This document shows, one piece after another, positions 58,420-64,000 of a stretch of DNA of 64,000 nt; the first letter of the stretch is position 1; each line of letters begins with the position of its first letter. Position numbers and translations under genes: made by a program. Location of the stretch: positions 32,001 through 96,000 of the forward strand of contig JBBRLI010000003.1 of NCBI GenBank assembly GCA_038231455.1, given 5' to 3'. This DNA is from Vulcanimicrobiales bacterium. GTDB taxonomy: Bacteria; Vulcanimicrobiota; Vulcanimicrobiia; Vulcanimicrobiales; Vulcanimicrobiaceae. The notes beneath the pieces are model-generated. The model worked only from the letters and a program-made list of their open reading frames with translations, made no database searches and was not told the DNA's origin.

Positions 58420-59226
58420 TTAGGCAGCGTTCGAGAGAGAGACGGGGGGCACGACAATCGTGAGCGGTTTGCCGCCGCGTTCGATCGAGAGCGCACGAGC
58501 CGAGACAAGGCGCATCTCACCGCGGATCGGTCGTCCGTCAATTTCAAGAATGACATCGCCGACGATCAGGCCGGCGGCTTCTGCGCGGCTCTCTTGGGTG
58601 ATGCCGAGGACGGCGAGTCCGATCCGATCGTTGAGGCGCACGGGTGCGTAGCGGATGCCCAGAAGGGGTGCGGGTGCGGTGAGGCCGAGGAATTGTTGCA
58701 CGGTATCACTTGGAACAGCAATCGCTAAGTCTCCGTTTGCAACCATACTGTTGACGCCCACGACGCGGCCGGAGCTGTCCGCCAGCGGACCGCCGGAGTT
58801 GCCCGGCGCCAGGCGCAAATCGGCGGTGACAAATCTTCCGCCCCGCCGCGCGTGGGCGATGCCGAGCGTGAGTGCTCCGAGGATCCCGTGCGGATTTCCC
58901 ATTGCGACGAGCAGCTCGCCGACGCGCAGATCTTTGGGATCGCGAATCGTTGCTGCGGGCAGTCCGGTGGCATCGATCCGTAACTTGGCAAGATCCCGGT
59001 CGACGTCGCGCGCTTCGATGCGCGCCGGGAAGCGCCGACCGTCGCTGAGTTCGACTTCGATCGCGCGCTCGCGTACGACGTGGGCGTTGGTGACGATCGT
59101 TCCGTCGGCGGACCAGATGACGCCCGAACCGGCGCCGCTCCCGCGTTGACCGCGTACCGCGACCGTGGAGGCACGCAGCGTAGCTGCTAAGGTCGCGAGT
59201 TCGTCCGAATAGGTGCTAGCGATCAT
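58420..59226 (-). CDS. HtrA-like serine protease with PDZ domain (no signal peptide)
   Basis: TNAHVV, DLA, PGNSGGPL. Confidence 0.9.
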   Translation of the reverse strand: MIASTYSDELATLAATLRASTVAVRGQRGSGAGSGVIWSADGTIVTNAHVVRERAIEVELSDGRRFPARIEARDVDRDLAKLRIDATGLPAATIRDPKDLRVGELLVAMGNPHGILGALTLGIAHARRGGRFVTADLRLAPGNSGGPLADSSGRVVGVNSMVANGDLAIAVPSDTVQQFLGLTAPAPLLGIRYAPVRLNDRIGLAVLGITQESRAEAAGLIVGDVILEIDGRPIRGEMRLVSARALSIERGGKPLTIVVPPVSLSNAA

Positions 59227-60145
59227 GGTGCGGACGCTCGCCCACGGTTACGTGAAGTTCGTGCGCGCCGCCGCCGCGGATAATCGTCAGCGCGACATCG
59301 CGTCCGACCGATCCCGTCCCGAGCAAGCTCGTCACGTCGTCGCCCTCGTTGACTCGCTTGCCGTCGAGCGCAACGATGATGTCGCCGACAATGAGTCCGC
59401 CGCGATGCGCGGGACCACCCGACTCAACGCCGAGTGCGATCACGCCGCCGCCGGGTTCGACCTTCGCGGTATTGGCGAGCGCTTCAGGCAGTTCGAGGGA
59501 CTGCATTGCGATACCCAAGTAGCCACGCGCAACGCGTTTGCCGCTAGCGAGACTCGCGACGACGCGGGCGATCGAGCTTGTCGGAACCGTCAGCGCATTG
59601 CGGCGCGAGAGCCCCCATGTGTTCATCCCAACGATGCGGCCATGCACGTCGATGAGCGGCCCGCCCGAGAAGCGTGGGCTGATCGCAAGATCCGGGCGGA
59701 TGAAGCGGTCGAGTTCGCCTCCGCGCCACGTGCGCCACGCCGCACCAAGCGCGCTGATCACGCCCATGGTCGCGGCGAGGTCGCCGTCGTCGTCACGTGC
59801 GAGCGCAAGGGCAAGCGAGCCAACGCGCAGATCGTCGCCCGGTGCGTGGTCGAGCACGACCGAGGCTGCCCGGTTGGAGCGTAAGAGGGCAATGTCGGTC
59901 GAGCCATCGTGACCGACGATTTTGGCTTGCTCGCTCATCCCATCGGCGTGGACGATCTCGACCGTCTCATCATCGTCGTCGATCGCATGATCGGACGTTA
60001 CGATATGGTTACTATCGATATAAAAACCCGAAGTCGAGAAGCGGCCCCCGCCTTCGACGGCCACGACGGCGCCGCTCGCGCGTTCGATCGTTCCCGCGAT
60101 GTCATTGGAGAGCGCGACGAGCGCGCTTGCTGTGCCTAATTCCAT
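59216..60145 (-). CDS. HtrA-like serine protease with PDZ domain (no signal peptide)
   Basis: TSDHA, TDIALL, PRFSGGPL, RGYLGI. Confidence 0.88.
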   Translation of the reverse strand: MELGTASALVALSNDIAGTIERASGAVVAVEGGGRFSTSGFYIDSNHIVTSDHAIDDDDETVEIVHADGMSEQAKIVGHDGSTDIALLRSNRAASVVLDHAPGDDLRVGSLALALARDDDGDLAATMGVISALGAAWRTWRGGELDRFIRPDLAISPRFSGGPLIDVHGRIVGMNTWGLSRRNALTVPTSSIARVVASLASGKRVARGYLGIAMQSLELPEALANTAKVEPGGGVIALGVESGGPAHRGGLIVGDIIVALDGKRVNEGDDVTSLLGTGSVGRDVALTIIRGGGAHELHVTVGERPHHDR

Positions 60146-60225: not shown

Positions 60226-60528
60226 ATGCCGAGCGTAACCGAGCTTCTCGAACCAACCCGCATTCAACAGCCGTTGCCGCTGTTCAATGTCATCGTGCAC
60301 AATTGCAATTGCCACACGTTCGATGACGTGATCGTCGCGTTCGTGCGGATCATCAACATGGCTCCCGGCGAGGCATCGCAGAAAGCGTTCGAGATCGACT
60401 ACCACGGCCGCGCGATCGTCGCGACCGTGCACGAAGAACTCGCCGAACTCTACGCCGACCGCCTCAAATCCGAGACGGTCAACCGTCTGGGGACGGCGCT
60501 ACGCGTAAGTATCGTCCCCGCACGCTAG
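60226..60528 (+). CDS. clpS: Clp protease adaptor ClpS (variant pocket)
   Basis: VIVHNCNCHTFDDV, GRAIV, ELAE; TGGTATACT extended -10 ends 8 nt upstream. Confidence 0.8.
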   Translation: MPSVTELLEPTRIQQPLPLFNVIVHNCNCHTFDDVIVAFVRIINMAPGEASQKAFEIDYHGRAIVATVHEELAELYADRLKSETVNRLGTALRVSIVPAR

Positions 60529-60534
60529 TCGGTT

Positions 60535-62547
60535 TTAGCCCGCTTTCGCCGCCATGATCGGCTCGTAGACTTTCTTTGTAATAAAGAGGTCGAGCAGATT
60601 CGCATCGACTTTCCCGCGACCGGCGAATTCCTTGACGAGAATGTCGAGCGCGCGATCGATCGGCATCGCAGCTTTATACGGTCGGTCGTTTGCGGTGAGC
60701 GCATCAAAGACATCGGAAATCGTCATCATGCGTACTTGCGGTGCGATCTCGAGGCCCTTGAGGCCGCGCGGATATCCGGTTCCATCGAGGTGCTCGTGAT
60801 GACCGTACGCGTAATCCGCAACGTTCTGCCACGGCGTTTTCTTCCACGGAATCTCGCGTAGGAAGAGAAACGACTGGGTGACGTGCTGTTCCATTTTGCT
60901 GCGCTCGTCGCTCGAGAGCGAACCGCGCGGAATGCGCAGGTATTGATATTCTTCCTCGGAGAGCAGCGGCTTTTCATCGGCGCCATCCAGATAGTATTTT
61001 TTAAGCAGCGATTCCATCTGTTCGCCGACACCTTCGGCGACGACGCGCGGTTCGTTTGCGCCCTCGACGCTCTCCATGAGCGCGCGCAGCTCGGTCGATG
61101 CATGCAGATGCTCGGACTCGACGTCTTTAAAACGTCGATCGTCGGGCGTGATCCCCGCTTGGAATAGCACGAACTTCTGATGGGCGGCGCGCGTTTCGAG
61201 CTGTTCGATTGCAAGGAGAAACCGGAGGCGGATCGCATCGAGCCGGCCATCGGGCAGCTTTTTTGCTTTGCCGAAAATGTACTCGGGGACCGCGACTTTG
61301 CCAAAGTCATGGAGCAGCGAGGCGTAGCGCATTTCGCGCATCTGATCGGCATCGAAATACATGTTCGCAAACTCGCCGCTCTCGACGTCGTTTGCCGCCT
61401 GCGCCTGAGCGACGGTCAGCTCGGCGACACGCGATGAGTGGCCTTGCGTCGCACGGTCGCGAACTTCGATCGCTTTGACCGAAGCGCGCACGAACTGCTC
61501 GAAGAGATCCTGAATCGATTCGAGCAGACTCTTATTTTCCAGGGCCACGCCGGCTTGCGAAGCGAGCGACGAGAGCACGGCTTCATCGTGAACGCTGAAC
61601 TCTTCGACAACTTGCTCGGTGTGCTCGGGCGATTGCAATTGCAGCGCAAAATCGGGTTTGCGATTGATCAGCATGATCGAACCGACAACCACGTTCTCGT
61701 GGTCGCGCATCGGTACGCACAGCACGGATTTGGTCCGGTAATTGTTCTTGAGGTCGAAGCTGTTATTGAACTTTACTTCGCCCTCGGGATTGAGGTGGTA
61801 GGCATCTTTGACGCGTAGGACGTTGCCGGTGTCGGCGACATAACCCGAGATCGAGGCCCGCGAGAGTGGTAGCATCGCACCCAGATACGCACCGGAGTCC
61901 GTCGGGCCGGTCTGCGCGACGGCAAAACGCAGCTTGCGTTCCCCGTCGGCCTCGGCGATGAGAAAGAGGCTGCCGGAATCGGCGTTCGTGAGTTCGCGCG
62001 CGCTACGCACGATTAGCTGCTGGAGTTTGGTAATATCGCGTTCGGCACTGAGCGAGAGCCCGATCTGCAGCAGCTGTTCGGATTCGCGTGTTTGCCGCTC
62101 GCCGCGCTTGCGTAAGCGGTGCGCTTCCTCGCGGTAGTCCAGGGCCTGCGCAGCGGTCCGCACGGTCGCGAGCAAGGCGCTGGGATCGAGCGGCGCGGTC
62201 AGCCATCCGCCGACGTGCGGGTTCGTTGCAAGATAGGCCGCCGCGGGTTCGCCGGGCTGCGCGACGATAATCGTGCTCGCGCCCTGCGCGACGTCGATGA
62301 CCATGAGCGCCTGCTCGACGGTTTCGCGCGGCCCGAGCGTCGCAAGGCGTTCGTAGTCGATCAGGTAGAGGATGCGCTGTCCGGGATTCACGGTCGTGCT
62401 AAAGGGCACACTCGCAGCGGCGTGCACGATCCCGGCGGCATCGAGGGCGCCTGCAGCGGGCCCCAGTTCGAAACCGTGAGGATAGACGAGCACGAGTGTA
62501 GGCCGCGGGACGACGGATTCGACCGAGGTCGACTCGGAAATGGACAT
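60535..62547 (-). CDS. GAF + HD-GYP cyclic-di-GMP phosphodiesterase
   Basis: GAF (YRTKSVLCVPM, LINRK); LLHDFGK, HHEHLDGTGYP, DVFDALTANDRPYK. Confidence 0.92.
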   Translation of the reverse strand: MSISESTSVESVVPRPTLVLVYPHGFELGPAAGALDAAGIVHAAASVPFSTTVNPGQRILYLIDYERLATLGPRETVEQALMVIDVAQGASTIIVAQPGEPAAAYLATNPHVGGWLTAPLDPSALLATVRTAAQALDYREEAHRLRKRGERQTRESEQLLQIGLSLSAERDITKLQQLIVRSARELTNADSGSLFLIAEADGERKLRFAVAQTGPTDSGAYLGAMLPLSRASISGYVADTGNVLRVKDAYHLNPEGEVKFNNSFDLKNNYRTKSVLCVPMRDHENVVVGSIMLINRKPDFALQLQSPEHTEQVVEEFSVHDEAVLSSLASQAGVALENKSLLESIQDLFEQFVRASVKAIEVRDRATQGHSSRVAELTVAQAQAANDVESGEFANMYFDADQMREMRYASLLHDFGKVAVPEYIFGKAKKLPDGRLDAIRLRFLLAIEQLETRAAHQKFVLFQAGITPDDRRFKDVESEHLHASTELRALMESVEGANEPRVVAEGVGEQMESLLKKYYLDGADEKPLLSEEEYQYLRIPRGSLSSDERSKMEQHVTQSFLFLREIPWKKTPWQNVADYAYGHHEHLDGTGYPRGLKGLEIAPQVRMMTISDVFDALTANDRPYKAAMPIDRALDILVKEFAGRGKVDANLLDLFITKKVYEPIMAAKAG

Positions 62548-62614
62548 CCTGTTGCTTATAACTATCGGTTAGCTGGTCTGTTTCCTATAGGTCCAAGGGC
62601 GGGACCGCCCGTTA

Positions 62615-63049
62615 GTGACGCGAACCATTCGGTCTGTGTTTGAAGAGACGATCGCGAGCCGCATCCGGCCGCTAGCCGAAGCGATGCAAGCGAGTGACCT
62701 CATTCGTGTGAGCGTCGCCGAAACTGACCTTGAAATCGAACTGATACGTCACCCGCGTCCGGCGGCAACGCCGGCAGCGGCGGTCGTCGATCCGTCCGCG
62801 GCTGCGGCCTCCGAGGCGACCTACGAGATCGTCGCGGCGGACCAAGTGGGGATCGTGCGGTTCACGCGCCCGATCGCCGTCGAGGGGACCGTGCTCGAGA
62901 ACGACCGCGAGATCGCTTACGTCGAAGCGCTTGGAATTCGCAATCCGGTCCGCTCCAAAGGCAAAGGGCGGATCGCATCCGTCTTCGTCATCGACGGGCA
63001 GGCGGTCGAATACGGCCAGCCGCTCTTCGCACTCGATCGGGGCGCATAA
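62615..63049 (+). CDS. Biotin carboxyl carrier protein homologue lacking the biotinylated Lys
   Basis: C-terminus DGQAVEYGQPLF is BCCP-like and sits directly before accC, but YVEALGIRN replaces IEAMKxxN. Confidence 0.8.
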   Translation: MTRTIRSVFEETIASRIRPLAEAMQASDLIRVSVAETDLEIELIRHPRPAATPAAAVVDPSAAAASEATYEIVAADQVGIVRFTRPIAVEGTVLENDREIAYVEALGIRNPVRSKGKGRIASVFVIDGQAVEYGQPLFALDRGA

Positions 63050-63054
63050 TCGCT

Positions 63055-64000
63055 ATGTTTCGGAAAGTCCTCATCGCCAACCGTGGCGAGATCGCTCTGC
63101 GTATCAACCGGGCATGCCAAGAACTCGGCGTTCCGACGGTGGCGATTTTCAGTGAAGCCGACCGGCAATCGCTGCACGTCCGCCACGCCGATGAAGCCTT
63201 CTGCGTCGGGCCTGGCCCCGTGGCCCGCTCGTACCTCAATATCCCGAACATCATTTCTGCGGCGTTGATCTCCGGCGCCGACGCGATCCATCCGGGCTAC
63301 GGATTTCTCGCTGAGAACGCGCGCTTTGCGGAAATCTGCAACGACCACGGCTTGCGTTTCATCGGTCCCAAACCGTCGGTGATCGCGACGATGGGCGACA
63401 AGGCGACTGCGCGGCGCGTCATGGCCGAAGCCGGCGTTGCGACGACCCCGGGCAGCGGGATTGTCGATTCGATCGACGAGGCGCGCCTGGAAATCGAAAA
63501 AGTCGGCTATCCGGTGCTGCTCAAAGCGTCGGCTGGCGGCGGCGGCAAAGGCATGCGCGAAGTGCATGCGCCCGAGGATCTCGAGCGCATGTTTACGACG
63601 GCGCGCGCTGAGGCGGAAGCCTCGTTCAACGACGGCCGTTTGTACGTCGAAAAGCTCATCCTTAAGCCGCGCCACATCGAAGTGCAACTGCTCGGAGACG
63701 AGCAGGGCAATCTCGTGCACTTAGGCGAGCGCGACTGCTCGATTCAAAAGCCGTCGCACCAGAAACTCATCGAAGAATCGCCCGCGTTCGAACTGCCGGT
63801 GCACGTGCGCGACCGACTCTACGAAATGGCACTTGCCGCCGGGCGCGCGGTCAATTACACCAACGCCGGAACGCTCGAATTTCTCGTCAGCGGCGAGCAG
63901 ATCTACTTCATGGAAATGAACACGCGCATTCAAGTCGAGCATCCCGTCACCGAGATGGTGTACGGCGTCGACTTGGTCAAAGAACAGATCCGCATCGCAG
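63055..64000 (+). CDS. accC: Acetyl-CoA carboxylase biotin carboxylase subunit (3' end off window)
   Basis: Read manually from ATG 63055: MFRKVLIANRGEIA, IHPGYGFLAEN, GGGGKGM, ERDCSIQ, EMNTRIQVEH. Confidence 0.95.
   Translation, partial: MFRKVLIANRGEIALRINRACQELGVPTVAIFSEADRQSLHVRHADEAFCVGPGPVARSYLNIPNIISAALISGADAIHPGYGFLAENARFAEICNDHGLRFIGPKPSVIATMGDKATARRVMAEAGVATTPGSGIVDSIDEARLEIEKVGYPVLLKASAGGGGKGMREVHAPEDLERMFTTARAEAEASFNDGRLYVEKLILKPRHIEVQLLGDEQGNLVHLGERDCSIQKPSHQKLIEESPAFELPVHVRDRLYEMALAAGRAVNYTNAGTLEFLVSGEQIYFMEMNTRIQVEHPVTEMVYGVDLVKEQIRIA

What the first reader, a model, noticed from the sequence alone, without database searches (positions are those of the whole stretch)
62615..63049. 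Non-biotinylatable BCCP in the accB position: a bacterial analogue of plant BADC proteins?
Seen: the gene 5 nt before accC has BCCP architecture (N-terminal segment, Ala/Pro linker, biotinyl domain ending DGQAVEYGQPLF). The codons GAA GCG CTT GGA give EALG instead of EAMK, and SPMVGTFY has become ADQVGIVRF, so this is not a single-base error. Known: BirA biotinylates the MK lysine; plant BADC proteins are BCCP paralogues lacking that lysine that bind and modulate heteromeric ACCase. Inference: a bacterial pseudo-carrier acting as a regulatory or assembly subunit, with the true accB elsewhere.
Basis: partly seen in the sequence, partly recalled or inferred. Interest (0 to 1): 0.78.

Follow-up and report, generated by a model that had tools for sequence, protein, structure and literature searches.

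The report
Lysine-less biotin carrier look-alike beside accC
The gene in front of the biotin carboxylase gene encodes a conserved copy of the biotin carrier protein that has no lysine to hold biotin, while the working carrier gene lies elsewhere, so these bacteria probably have a dummy-carrier subunit like those described so far only for plant acetyl-CoA carboxylase.

Summary
Window 62615-63049 (+) is a 144-aa ORF ending 5 nt before accC. It has BCCP architecture, but Gly107 (E-A-L-G) sits where the biotinyl-lysine should be, and the 'thumb' loop is deleted.

- **Not decay.** All 120 listed homologues carry Gly there, down to 41% identity. LGIRNPVR is the best-conserved stretch. 49 of the 120 have no lysine anywhere. 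dN/dS against the sister species is 0.14.
- **Real carrier elsewhere.** A canonical EAMK accB (TIGR00531 127 bits) lies next to hisS on another contig. The genome also has accA, accD, birA and a single stand-alone accC.
- **Lineage-wide.** The Gly form fills one whole order of Eremiobacterota/Vulcanimicrobiota. The sister order has Lys or Arg at that site. In 10 of 15 genomes from other families of the phylum, the accC-adjacent copy has Asn, Ser, Arg or Gly. Ktedonobacterales and Armatimonadota-labelled MAGs also have lysine-less copies.
- **Ancient paralogues.** Both copies track the species tree.

Best reading: a non-catalytic, BADC-like subunit that binds AccC and the true carrier through its conserved N-terminal domain. 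Binding and any effect on activity are untested, because the complex predictor was unavailable. I found no bacterial case in print.

The parts
62615..63049 (+). ORF of the lysine-less BCCP paralogue (144 aa from GTG 62615, stop TAA 63047-63049)
   Evidence: Pfam Biotin_lipoyl 26.5 bits. TIGR00531 41 bits, far below the 115.2 cut-off.
62636..62638 (+). Alternative GTG start (codon 8), which would give a 137-aa product beginning MFEETIA
   Evidence: In alignment A1, 17 of 22 family members begin at this aligned position. A 137-aa database entry is 99% identical.
62621..62749 (+). N-terminal domain: helix (residues 3-26) plus beta-hairpin (30-45), the part of BCCP that contacts biotin carboxylase and other BCCP chains
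   Evidence: AF2 secondary structure. It aligns to residues 24 onward of E. coli BCCP in the BC-BCCP complex 4hr7_B. It is the only part BLASTP detects between the two paralogues of this genome (39% over 44 aa). R16, R31 and R45 are invariant in the family.
62759..62806 (+). Ala/Pro-rich flexible linker (residues 49-64)
   Evidence: pLDDT below 50 for residues 49-64. Length and sequence vary in alignment A1.
62822..63037 (+). Biotinyl-domain-like beta barrel (residues 70-141), about 5 residues shorter than in canonical BCCP because the 'thumb' loop is missing
   Evidence: pLDDT 91-96. Foldseek 1bdo TM 0.83, Pyrococcus BCCP 0.89. A 5-residue gap lies opposite the thumb of the canonical copy. 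Domain length is 73 aa against 78 aa.
62924..62935 (+). Hairpin-tip codons GAA GCG CTT GGA = E104 A105 L106 G107, with Gly in the place of the biotinyl-lysine
   Evidence: sequence. (aligned to the Lys of E. coli EAMKM). (Gly in 120 of 120 homologues).
63050..63054 (+). 5-nt spacer between the stop codon and the accC ATG, consistent with one operon and probably coupled translation
   Evidence: The median spacer across 92 related loci is 5 nt, and 79 of the 92 are 30 nt or less.
63055..64000 (+). accC (biotin carboxylase), 5' part. The gene runs past the window end and is 457 aa in full (G000:C3:95055-96428)
   Evidence: Full length scores TIGR00514 634.9 bits, above the 626.5 cut-off, and it is the only stand-alone biotin carboxylase in the genome. 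Three Pfam BC domains are present.

Best explanation
The ORF encodes a non-catalytic paralogue of the biotin carboxyl carrier protein that sits in the ancestral accB slot of the accBC operon.

Shown:
- It folds like BCCP: N-terminal helix-hairpin, flexible Ala/Pro linker, C-terminal biotinyl-type barrel.
- It cannot be biotinylated. The acceptor lysine is a conserved glycine, and many orthologues contain no lysine at all.
- It is kept under purifying selection.
- It is almost always encoded directly upstream of accC.
- It coexists with a canonical, biotinylatable AccB encoded next to hisS.

Inferred:
- It is made together with AccC and binds it through the conserved N-terminal domain, the region BCCP uses to join biotin carboxylase and other BCCP chains.
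- It forms mixed AccC / AccB / pseudo-AccB sub-complexes, in which it organises or tunes the biotin carboxylase half of acetyl-CoA carboxylase.
- It therefore works as plant BADC proteins do.

The invariant, positively charged hairpin LGIRNPVR (canonical hairpins are acidic) suggests that the barrel has gained a docking role of its own. It may dock at an active site or on a partner surface without carrying a carboxyl group.
For: **Cannot carry biotin.**
- Gly107 aligns with the biotinyl-Lys of E. coli BCCP and lies at the hairpin tip of a confident model.
- 120 of 120 listed homologues have Gly there, and 49 of the 120 have no Lys anywhere.
- No alignment column has Lys in more than 13 of 29 Gly-type rows.

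**Selected, not decaying.**
- L106, G107, I108, R109, N110, V112 and R113 are invariant across 22 members down to 42% identity.
- dN/dS is 0.144 against the sister species. The canonical accB gives 0.120 and accC 0.029 in the same genome pair.
- The DNA motif is present in 264 of 296 genomes of the window's own family and 5 of 5 of the neighbouring family in the same order.

**ACC context.**
- accC follows on the same strand in 94 of 95 loci, with a median gap of 5 nt.
- The genome has one stand-alone accC, accD-accA, birA and a canonical EAMK accB.
- Downstream genes are nusB, a PBP and xseA. By recall these are neighbours of accBC in Firmicutes, which points to the ancestral slot.

**N-terminal domain retained.**
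- The profile aligns to full-length BCCP of the BC-BCCP crystal complex 4hr7_B from residue 24.
- It is the only region BLASTP finds between the two paralogues of this genome.

**Old, vertically inherited pair.**
- accC-adjacent copies of the class form a clade (SH-aLRT 81, 97).
- Canonical copies form their own clade (SH-aLRT 95 for 27 of the 29 rows; 94 for 14 of 16) and mirror the same species split. The other two rows in each tree are extra EVMK copies that fall outside.
- hisS-accB linkage is kept in 25 of 29 class loci and 8 of 12 loci from other families of the phylum.

**Precedent.** Plant BADC proteins are non-biotinylated BCCP paralogues that bind BC and BCCP. They are described as unique to the plant enzyme (PMC11926652 abstract and passages; PMC12706156 passages).
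Against: - No physical or predicted interaction was obtained, because the complex predictor was unavailable.
- In Ktedonobacterales MAGs a lysine-less copy sits between efp and xseA with no accC within about 2.5 kb. Adjacency to accC is therefore not required for such proteins to persist.
- The barrel has diverged so far from the canonical copy of the same genome that BLASTP no longer aligns it. The thumb loop is also gone. This could mean a role unrelated to ACC active sites.
- In the sister order the same position is Lys in 7 genomes and Arg in 4. Some members may still be biotinylated, so the family is not uniformly 'dead'.
- dN/dS rests on one independent genome pair.
- One Gly-type copy (G006) is split by a frameshift.
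Confidence: 0.5

Rival explanations
1. Pure decoy or negative regulator. The protein occupies the BCCP site(s) on AccC but cannot be carboxylated, so it lowers ACC flux in proportion to its abundance. It would not be needed for assembly.
For: The architecture and accC linkage are the same as for the best explanation. The hairpin keeps its shape and the flanking Asn while losing only the acceptor, so it could still dock at the BC active site. BADCs were first described as negative regulators (passages of PMC12706156).
Against: An inhibitor that is co-translated with its target in nearly every genome of a phylum-level lineage would throttle an essential enzyme all the time. Such tight linkage (median 5 nt) fits a stoichiometric subunit better. 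The plant literature has moved towards an assembly role. Nothing here tells the two models apart.
Confidence: 0.2
2. A role outside catalysis by ACC. The retained N-terminal domain might act in autoregulating the operon, as E. coli AccB does for accBC (recalled). Alternatively, the Arg-rich hairpin might bind another partner such as PII, an RNA or another enzyme. In either case accC adjacency would be historical only.
For: Lysine-less copies persist without a neighbouring accC in Ktedonobacterales. The hairpin's charge is reversed: net +1.4 over 17 residues against -2.0 in canonical copies. That implies a changed binding surface. PII is known to bind BCCP and BADC (passages of PMC12706156).
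Against: In the window's phylum, adjacency to accC is kept in 94 of 95 loci of the order and in all 10 lysine-less copies found in other families. No DNA- or RNA-binding domain was found; the only Pfam hits are Biotin_lipoyl-type barrels.
Confidence: 0.2
3. A decaying relic of accB that was made redundant by the hisS-linked copy and has no function.
For: It lost the acceptor lysine and the thumb loop, and it scores far below the BCCP cut-off. One genome (G006) has a frameshifted copy.
Against: dN/dS is 0.14. The hairpin motif is invariant down to about 41% identity. An intact ORF is present in 41 of 41 relatives, and the motif is present in 269 of 301 genomes of the order. The fold is predicted with confidence. 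The paralogue clade co-diverges with the species.
Confidence: 0.03
4. It is still a carboxyl carrier, modified at another residue or carrying a different cofactor.
For: The window's own protein has two lysines (K115, K117) seven to ten residues after the hairpin tip.
Against: Those lysines are Arg, Leu, His, Ala or Pro in homologues. 49 of 120 homologues have no lysine at all. No column is Lys in more than 13 of 29 rows. A canonical AccB is present to do the job in 39 of 41 genomes.
Confidence: 0.02

Closest known systems
[quoted passage not shown]
   Same: Both are BCCP paralogues with a biotinyl-type barrel that lacks the acceptor lysine. Both coexist with true BCCP and with separate BC and CT subunits. 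Non-catalytic by sequence.
   Different: This one is bacterial, encoded in the accBC operon slot and translationally linked to accC. The trees place its origin inside a bacterial lineage, so it probably arose independently; no BADC sequence was in the tree. It has an Arg-rich LGIRNPVR hairpin and lacks the thumb loop. Binding to BC and BCCP and any effect on activity are shown for BADC but not here.
Canonical bacterial AccB/BCCP (E. coli AccB; NCBIfam TIGR00531)
   Same: Three-part architecture, N-terminal domain similarity, barrel fold, and position directly upstream of accC.
   Different: There is no (A/V)MKM lysine, and the thumb is deleted. It scores 41 bits against the 115.2 cut-off. The hairpin charge is reversed. 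The genome's real AccB is a different gene next to hisS.
Actinobacterial epsilon subunits (AccE/PccE) of acyl-CoA carboxylases
   Same: They are small non-catalytic subunits that glue a bacterial biotin carboxylase complex together. PMC11926652 cites them as a functional parallel.
   Different: By recall they are unrelated in sequence and fold and bind the carboxyltransferase side. They are not BCCP paralogues.
Lysine-less BCCP paralogues between accA and accC in Chloroflexota, noted earlier in this scan (e1-1480750, e1-1498737)
   Same: The same kind of object: a conserved BCCP copy without the acceptor lysine inside an ACC gene cluster, read as BADC-like (unchecked AI notes).
   Different: They come from a different phylum and gene order. 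Here the copy precedes accC alone, and accD-accA lie about 100 kb away on the same contig. My trees neither show nor reject common ancestry with other lysine-less copies.

Membership tests
AccB/BCCP equivalog (NCBIfam TIGR00531) | Whole-protein score at or above the curated cut-off (115.2 bits) | tested here: not met
   41 bits and 32.2 bits in the genome scan. The hisS-linked copy scores 126.6-127.1 bits.
AccB/BCCP equivalog (NCBIfam TIGR00531) | Biotin-acceptor lysine in the (A/V)-M-K-(M/L) hairpin | tested here: not met
   E-A-L-G; Gly107 aligns to the Lys of E. coli BCCP. Gly in 120 of 120 homologues.
AccB/BCCP equivalog (NCBIfam TIGR00531) | Biotinyl-domain barrel fold | tested here: met
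   AF2 pLDDT above 90 for residues 70-141. Foldseek 1bdo TM 0.83, 5gua 0.89, probability 1.00.
AccB/BCCP equivalog (NCBIfam TIGR00531) | N-terminal BC-interaction/oligomerisation domain plus Ala/Pro linker | tested here: met
   The profile alignment to 4hr7_B covers query positions 8-134. Helix 3-26, hairpin 30-45, disordered 49-64. 39% identity to the N-terminus of the canonical copy.
AccB/BCCP equivalog (NCBIfam TIGR00531) | 'Thumb' loop between the second and third strands of the barrel (typical of ACC-type BCCPs; recalled) | tested here: not met
   A 5-residue gap opposite YRSPSPGSDPF of the canonical copy and opposite the E. coli thumb region. Domain length 73 aa against 78 aa.
AccB/BCCP equivalog (NCBIfam TIGR00531) | Gene directly upstream of accC | tested here: met
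   5-nt spacer. accC follows in 94 of 95 related loci.
Pfam Biotin_lipoyl (PF00364) | Score above the gathering threshold (22.1 bits) | tested here: met
   26.5 bits, residues 83-140. All 23 members of the wider lysine-less set match.
BADC-type non-catalytic ACC subunit (functional class) | BCCP-like barrel without the acceptor lysine, conserved as such | tested here: met
BADC-type non-catalytic ACC subunit (functional class) | Coexists with a canonical BCCP and with the other subunits of heteromeric ACC | tested here: met
   Canonical accB, accC, accA, accD and birA in G000. A canonical copy of 99.8 bits or more in 39 of 41 relatives.
BADC-type non-catalytic ACC subunit (functional class) | Binds biotin carboxylase and/or BCCP | not testable with these tools
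   Complex prediction was queue-full repeatedly and then declared unavailable.
BADC-type non-catalytic ACC subunit (functional class) | Alters ACC assembly or activity | not testable with these tools
   Needs biochemical reconstitution.
Plant BADC family (descent) | Shares ancestry with BADC1-3 to the exclusion of canonical BCCPs | not tested
The trees show the paralogue arising among bacterial BCCPs, which makes independent origin the likelier reading.

The most novel reading that the evidence does not exclude
Lysine-less 'AccB*' proteins are one ancient paralogue family of Terrabacteria. Members occur throughout Eremiobacterota/Vulcanimicrobiota, in Armatimonadota-labelled MAGs and in Ktedonobacterales/Chloroflexota. 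In these lineages the operonic accB became an obligatory fifth, non-catalytic subunit that organises biotin carboxylase, while the catalytic carrier is a separate hisS-linked gene. If so, dummy-carrier subunits are not a plant invention but a recurrent or ancestral design of multi-subunit ACC. The invariant Arg-rich hairpin would mark a new docking function for the biotinyl barrel. A tree that holds all 46 accC-adjacent or lysine-less rows together (7 sister-order rows still carry Lys) is slightly better than the free tree and is not rejected (p-AU 0.67).
Probability: 0.3. Interest if true: 0.85.

Novelty: new variant of a known kind. Interest (0 to 1): 0.72.

Why it matters
Recent literature describes non-catalytic BCCP look-alikes (BADC) as unique to plant plastid ACCase (PMC11926652, abstract), and whether they inhibit the enzyme or help assemble it is disputed. 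A bacterial counterpart would offer three things.

- It is fixed across hundreds of species and translationally linked to accC, so it comes as a simple, operon-encoded system.
- It can be reconstituted in E. coli, which would let the decoy and scaffold models be tested directly.
- It would show that the five-subunit design evolved more than once.

It also matters for annotation. These genes are currently named 'acetyl-CoA carboxylase biotin carboxyl carrier protein' in public records, although they cannot carry biotin, and the real accB of these genomes is a different gene. Metabolic reconstructions of Eremiobacterota would otherwise pick the wrong carrier.

Tried and rejected
**Complex prediction.** I handed AccC (alignment A4) plus the pseudo-carrier (A1) to complex prediction. 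The queue was full each time. At the tool was declared unavailable, so nothing was folded and there is no verdict.

**Expression.** The look-up of sequencing runs listed no RNA holder. It found one DNA run holding 0.94 of the sampled words and many runs with small shares.

**Promoter and terminator scan.** The scan of 62300-63300 found nothing. The tool covers sigma-70 consensus sites only, so this is uninformative.

**Literature.**
- One search failed because a term was too long; one search replaced it.
- Salie et al. 2016 (PMC5059801) and Shivaiah et al. 2020 (PMC6997691) are not held. What I say about them comes from passages in later papers or from recall.
- Searches for a bacterial lysine-less BCCP returned only plant BADC papers or unrelated biotin-ligase papers. 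One search (Eremiobacterota plus acetyl-CoA carboxylase) returned nothing relevant.
- The Chloroflexus ACC paper (PMC11077971) concerns a fused BC-BCCP that has the lysine, not a lysine-less copy.

**Cultured host.** I looked for one. Only MAGs appeared for the Ktedonobacterales Asn-type, and no Vulcanimicrobium isolate record was listed.

**Representative search.** The profile search does not separate lysine-less from canonical BCCPs. Among the top 150, 125 have Lys and 25 do not, so it gives no census.

**Rejected readings.**
- Sequencing error: two base changes would be needed, and the Gly is conserved.
- Pseudogene: contradicted by the conservation data.
- Alternative lysine acceptor: no conserved lysine exists.

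Full report
**1. The observation**

The ORF at 62615-63049 (+) is real: 144 aa, GTG start, TAA stop, with the accC ATG five bases later at 63055. The in-frame codons GAA GCG CTT GGA at 62924-62935 read E104-A105-L106-G107.

- Pfam finds a Biotin_lipoyl domain just above threshold (26.5 bits against 22.1). The BCCP equivalog TIGR00531 scores 41 bits against a cut-off of 115.2.
- A profile of the family finds, as its best solved relative, full-length E. coli BCCP from the BC-BCCP complex (4hr7_B, E 2.1e-11). The match covers the N-terminal domain as well as the barrel. The Gly lies opposite the biotinyl-lysine, and there is a gap where E. coli has its thumb loop.
- AlphaFold2 with 22 family sequences gives a helix (3-26), a hairpin (30-45), a disordered Ala/Pro linker (49-64) and a barrel (70-141) at pLDDT above 90. 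G107 is in the turn between strands 99-105 and 108-113.
- Foldseek's top hits are biotinyl domains: 1bdo at TM 0.83 and Pyrococcus BCCP at 0.89.
- Most homologues begin at the position of codon 8, also a GTG, so the product may be 137 aa.

**2. The genome has a complete ordinary ACC with its carrier encoded elsewhere**

- TIGR00531 finds one gene above its cut-off, at G000:C30:21419-21853 (126.6 bits). It is a 163-aa ORF with APVVGVFYRSPSPG and LEAMKLMNEI.
- Its start overlaps the end of hisS (TIGR00442, 464 bits). A gmhA-like gene and a further ORF that I labelled hldE follow; neither name is confirmed here, since gmhA scores 186.6 bits against a 209.45 cut-off and hldE was never scanned against a family library.
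- The accC next to the window ORF is the only stand-alone biotin carboxylase: 634.9 bits against a cut-off of 626.5. The three other BC matches lie in long fused frames of 642, 906 and 1174 aa.
- accD-accA sit about 100 kb further along the same contig, and birA is present.
- Downstream of accC come nusB, a class A PBP, xseA, a TlyA-like methyltransferase and NAD kinase. By recall this resembles the accBC-nusB-xseA neighbourhood of Firmicutes. The lysine-less gene therefore appears to occupy the ancestral accB position.

**3. The change is conserved, not decay**

- The large protein search returned 249 hits at E of 0.001 or better among 525 candidates. The 120 listed are 41-99% identical. Sources name them as BCCP of Candidatus Velthaea, Elarobacter and Baltobacteraceae, that is Eremiobacterota, which NCBI calls Vulcanimicrobiota.
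- All 120 have Gly at the acceptor position, and 49 of them contain no lysine anywhere.
- In a 22-sequence alignment the invariant residues include L106, G107, I108, R109, N110, V112 and R113. No lysine is conserved.
- Against the sister species, dN/dS is 0.144 (dN 0.093, dS 0.644). The canonical accB gives 0.120 and accC 0.029 in the same pair. This is one independent pair only.
- All 41 related genomes searched have a homologue.
- In the 30 genomes of the two nearest families, the residue is Gly in 30 of 30. One copy, in G006, is split by a frameshift.
- A DNA pattern for E-x-L-G-I-R-(N/T/K)-x-(V/I/M) hits 264 of 296 genomes of the window's family and 5 of 5 of the second family in the same order. 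It hits 2 of 30 in the sister order and 12 of 69 in other families. The listed hits outside the order encode other peptides, and the reversed control pattern hits about 20 genomes. Misses within the order include known variants such as D-A-L-G and L-G-V-R.
- Among 95 loci with the Gly form, accC follows on the same strand in 92 by motif. It also follows in two further loci, the same contig fetched twice, by eye. One locus stops at a contig end. The median spacer is 5 nt, and 79 of 92 spacers are 30 nt or less. Some loci are the same genome fetched twice, so these are not 95 independent cases.

**4. How the barrel differs**

- The Gly-type domain is 73 residues against 78 in the canonical copy, because the thumb is deleted.
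- The 17 residues around the hairpin have a mean net charge of +1.4, against -2.0 in the canonical copies of the same genomes.
- No column has lysine in more than 13 of 29 rows.
- BLASTP between the two paralogues of this genome aligns only the N-terminal domain, at 39% over 44 aa.

**5. History**

- A canonical BCCP of 99.8 bits or more is present in 39 of 41 genomes of the class. The two exceptions are 89-90% complete. No BC motif lies beside it in 27 of 30 loci. The three exceptions are extra EVMK-type copies.
- hisS lies next to the canonical copy in 25 of 29 class loci and in 8 of 12 loci from other families of the phylum.
- In trees (IQ-TREE quick, SH-aLRT only), the accC-adjacent copies of the class form one clade (81, 97). 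Within it the Gly form is a clade (94); its rows fall into two unresolved groups inside the 97 clade.
- The canonical copies form their own clade (SH-aLRT 95 for 27 of the 29 rows; 94 for 14 of 16; the extra EVMK copies fall outside) with the same order-level split. Both genes have therefore been inherited side by side since at least the class ancestor.
- In the sister order the accC-adjacent copy reads EALK in 7 genomes and EALR in 4. Both trees need at least two Lys/Arg changes. That kind of interchange is not expected at a site that must be biotinylated.

**6. Wider spread (beyond the finding)**

- I examined 15 genomes from other families of the same GTDB phylum. In 10 of them a BCCP-like ORF lies directly upstream of accC with Asn (5), Ser (2), Gly (2) or Arg (1) at the acceptor position. 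Nine of these ten also have a separate EAMK accB-type gene with no accC beside it. In the tenth (G065) the only other hit is a short EAMKMEN-type protein. In the other 5 genomes no accC-adjacent copy was among the fetched loci.
- The genome-collection scan also found lysine-less copies in seven Ktedonobacterales, Chloroflexia or Chloroflexota-labelled MAG loci (EALN). In the one such locus whose neighbours I scanned (L178) the gene lies between efp and xseA; no accC motif was seen on the same strand in any of the seven. It found them in three Armatimonadota-labelled MAGs as well, with Gly, Thr and Arg. Source names for three representatives agree with these labels.
- Holding all 46 accC-adjacent or lysine-less rows together gives a tree 8.4 log-likelihood units better than the free search, with p-AU 0.67. 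A single origin is therefore not rejected. It is not shown either: the group was named after the first tree was seen, and long branches are involved.
- Two earlier notes of this scan report lysine-less BCCP copies between accA and accC in Chloroflexota. These are unchecked AI notes, and I treat them as leads only.

**7. Mechanism**

Shown: the protein cannot accept biotin, it is under purifying selection, it keeps BCCP's N-terminal domain and barrel fold, it is co-encoded with accC, and it coexists with a true AccB.

Inferred: it binds AccC, and probably AccB, through the N-terminal domain. It would then be a stoichiometric non-catalytic subunit of the biotin carboxylase sub-complex, acting either as an organiser or as a brake. 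The invariant basic hairpin suggests a specific docking function.

I could not test binding because complex prediction never accepted the job and was finally unavailable. No RNA run holds the locus.

**8. Comparison with what is known, and novelty**

- The closest known systems are the plant BADC proteins. Papers I read in part describe them as non-biotinylated BCCP-like subunits that bind BC and BCCP, and as 'unique to the plant htACCase' (PMC11926652 abstract and passages; PMC12706156 passages; PMC11889953 passages).
- Five full-text searches found no bacterial lysine-less BCCP in print. The library lacks most subscription papers, and I could not read the two key BADC papers.
- The protein fails the tests for membership of the AccB equivalog: score, lysine and thumb.
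- It meets the sequence-level features of the BADC functional class. The two defining functional features, binding and effect on ACC, are untestable here.
- I rate it a new variant of a known kind.

**9. Claims that include unpublished genomes**

The tools flag G009, G020, G022 and G036 as unpublished, and also G192, G225, G243, G256, G272, G284 and G371 in the tally. They are included in these counts: 41/41, 39/41, 30/30, the 11 sister-order genomes, 264/296 and 94/95. They also contribute rows to the two trees and to the charge statistics. No claim depends on them alone.

Noticed in passing
L175, L178-L181, L183, L184 (Ktedonobacterales/Chloroflexia MAG contigs); L218-L226: BCCP-like ORFs with Asn in place of the biotinyl-lysine (A-V-E-A-L-N-V-Y-N-E-V-E-A). 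In the one locus whose neighbours were scanned (L178) the ORF lies between efp and xseA; no accC motif was seen on the same strand in any of these loci. They form their own clade, so this may be an independent loss of the lysine. Only MAGs were found, no isolates.
   Followed up: partly
L203-L211, L214 (genomes G044, G046, G047, G049, G054, G065, G074, G078, G086, G122 of other families of the same GTDB phylum): The BCCP-like ORF directly upstream of accC has Asn, Ser, Arg or Gly at the acceptor position in 10 of the 15 genomes examined. A separate EAMK accB, often next to hisS, is present as well.
   Followed up: partly
L174, L182, L187 (MAGs labelled Armatimonadota): BCCP-like ORFs with Gly, Thr or Arg at the acceptor position. 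The L182 copy lies downstream of efp with one ORF between them. In L174, accC lies about 380 nt downstream.
   Followed up: partly
L060, L090-L099 (sister order of the same class, genomes G030-G040): The accC-adjacent paralogue reads EALK in 7 genomes and EALR in 4. It also has a C-terminal tail ending in EPPR(L/I) in the three copies I aligned (L060, L090, L096). Whether the Lys forms are biotinylated is open.
   Followed up: partly
L100 (G006:C1:553300-557500): The Gly-type gene of this genome is split between two reading frames: a 55-aa C-terminal piece, and the N-terminal part in another frame. This is either a frameshift or an assembly error.
   Followed up: no
L001 (G000:C30:19919-23353), positions 179-2531: The canonical accB start overlaps the hisS stop by 4 nt. 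A gmhA-like gene and a further ORF (labelled hldE without a family scan) follow. The hisS-accB pairing is kept in 25 of 29 class loci and in 8 of 12 loci from other families, which is an unusual home for accB.
   Followed up: partly
L061, L062, L070 (G029, G019, G014): Three genomes have an extra K-bearing BCCP next to a biotin-carboxylase-like gene. Two of the three (L061, L070) read EVMK; the hairpin of L062 was not read. This is probably a separate acyl-CoA carboxylase system.
   Followed up: no
window 60535-62547 (-): A 670-aa protein with GAF and HD-GYP-type (HD_5) domains is transcribed divergently from the pseudo-carrier gene. Only 67 nt separate the two start codons. It is possibly a cyclic-di-GMP phosphodiesterase that shares a control region with the accC operon.
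   Followed up: no
window 59216-60145 (-) and 60226-60528 (+): An HtrA/DegP-like serine protease with a PDZ region, and a small ClpS-like adaptor. Both score below their family cut-offs.
   Followed up: no
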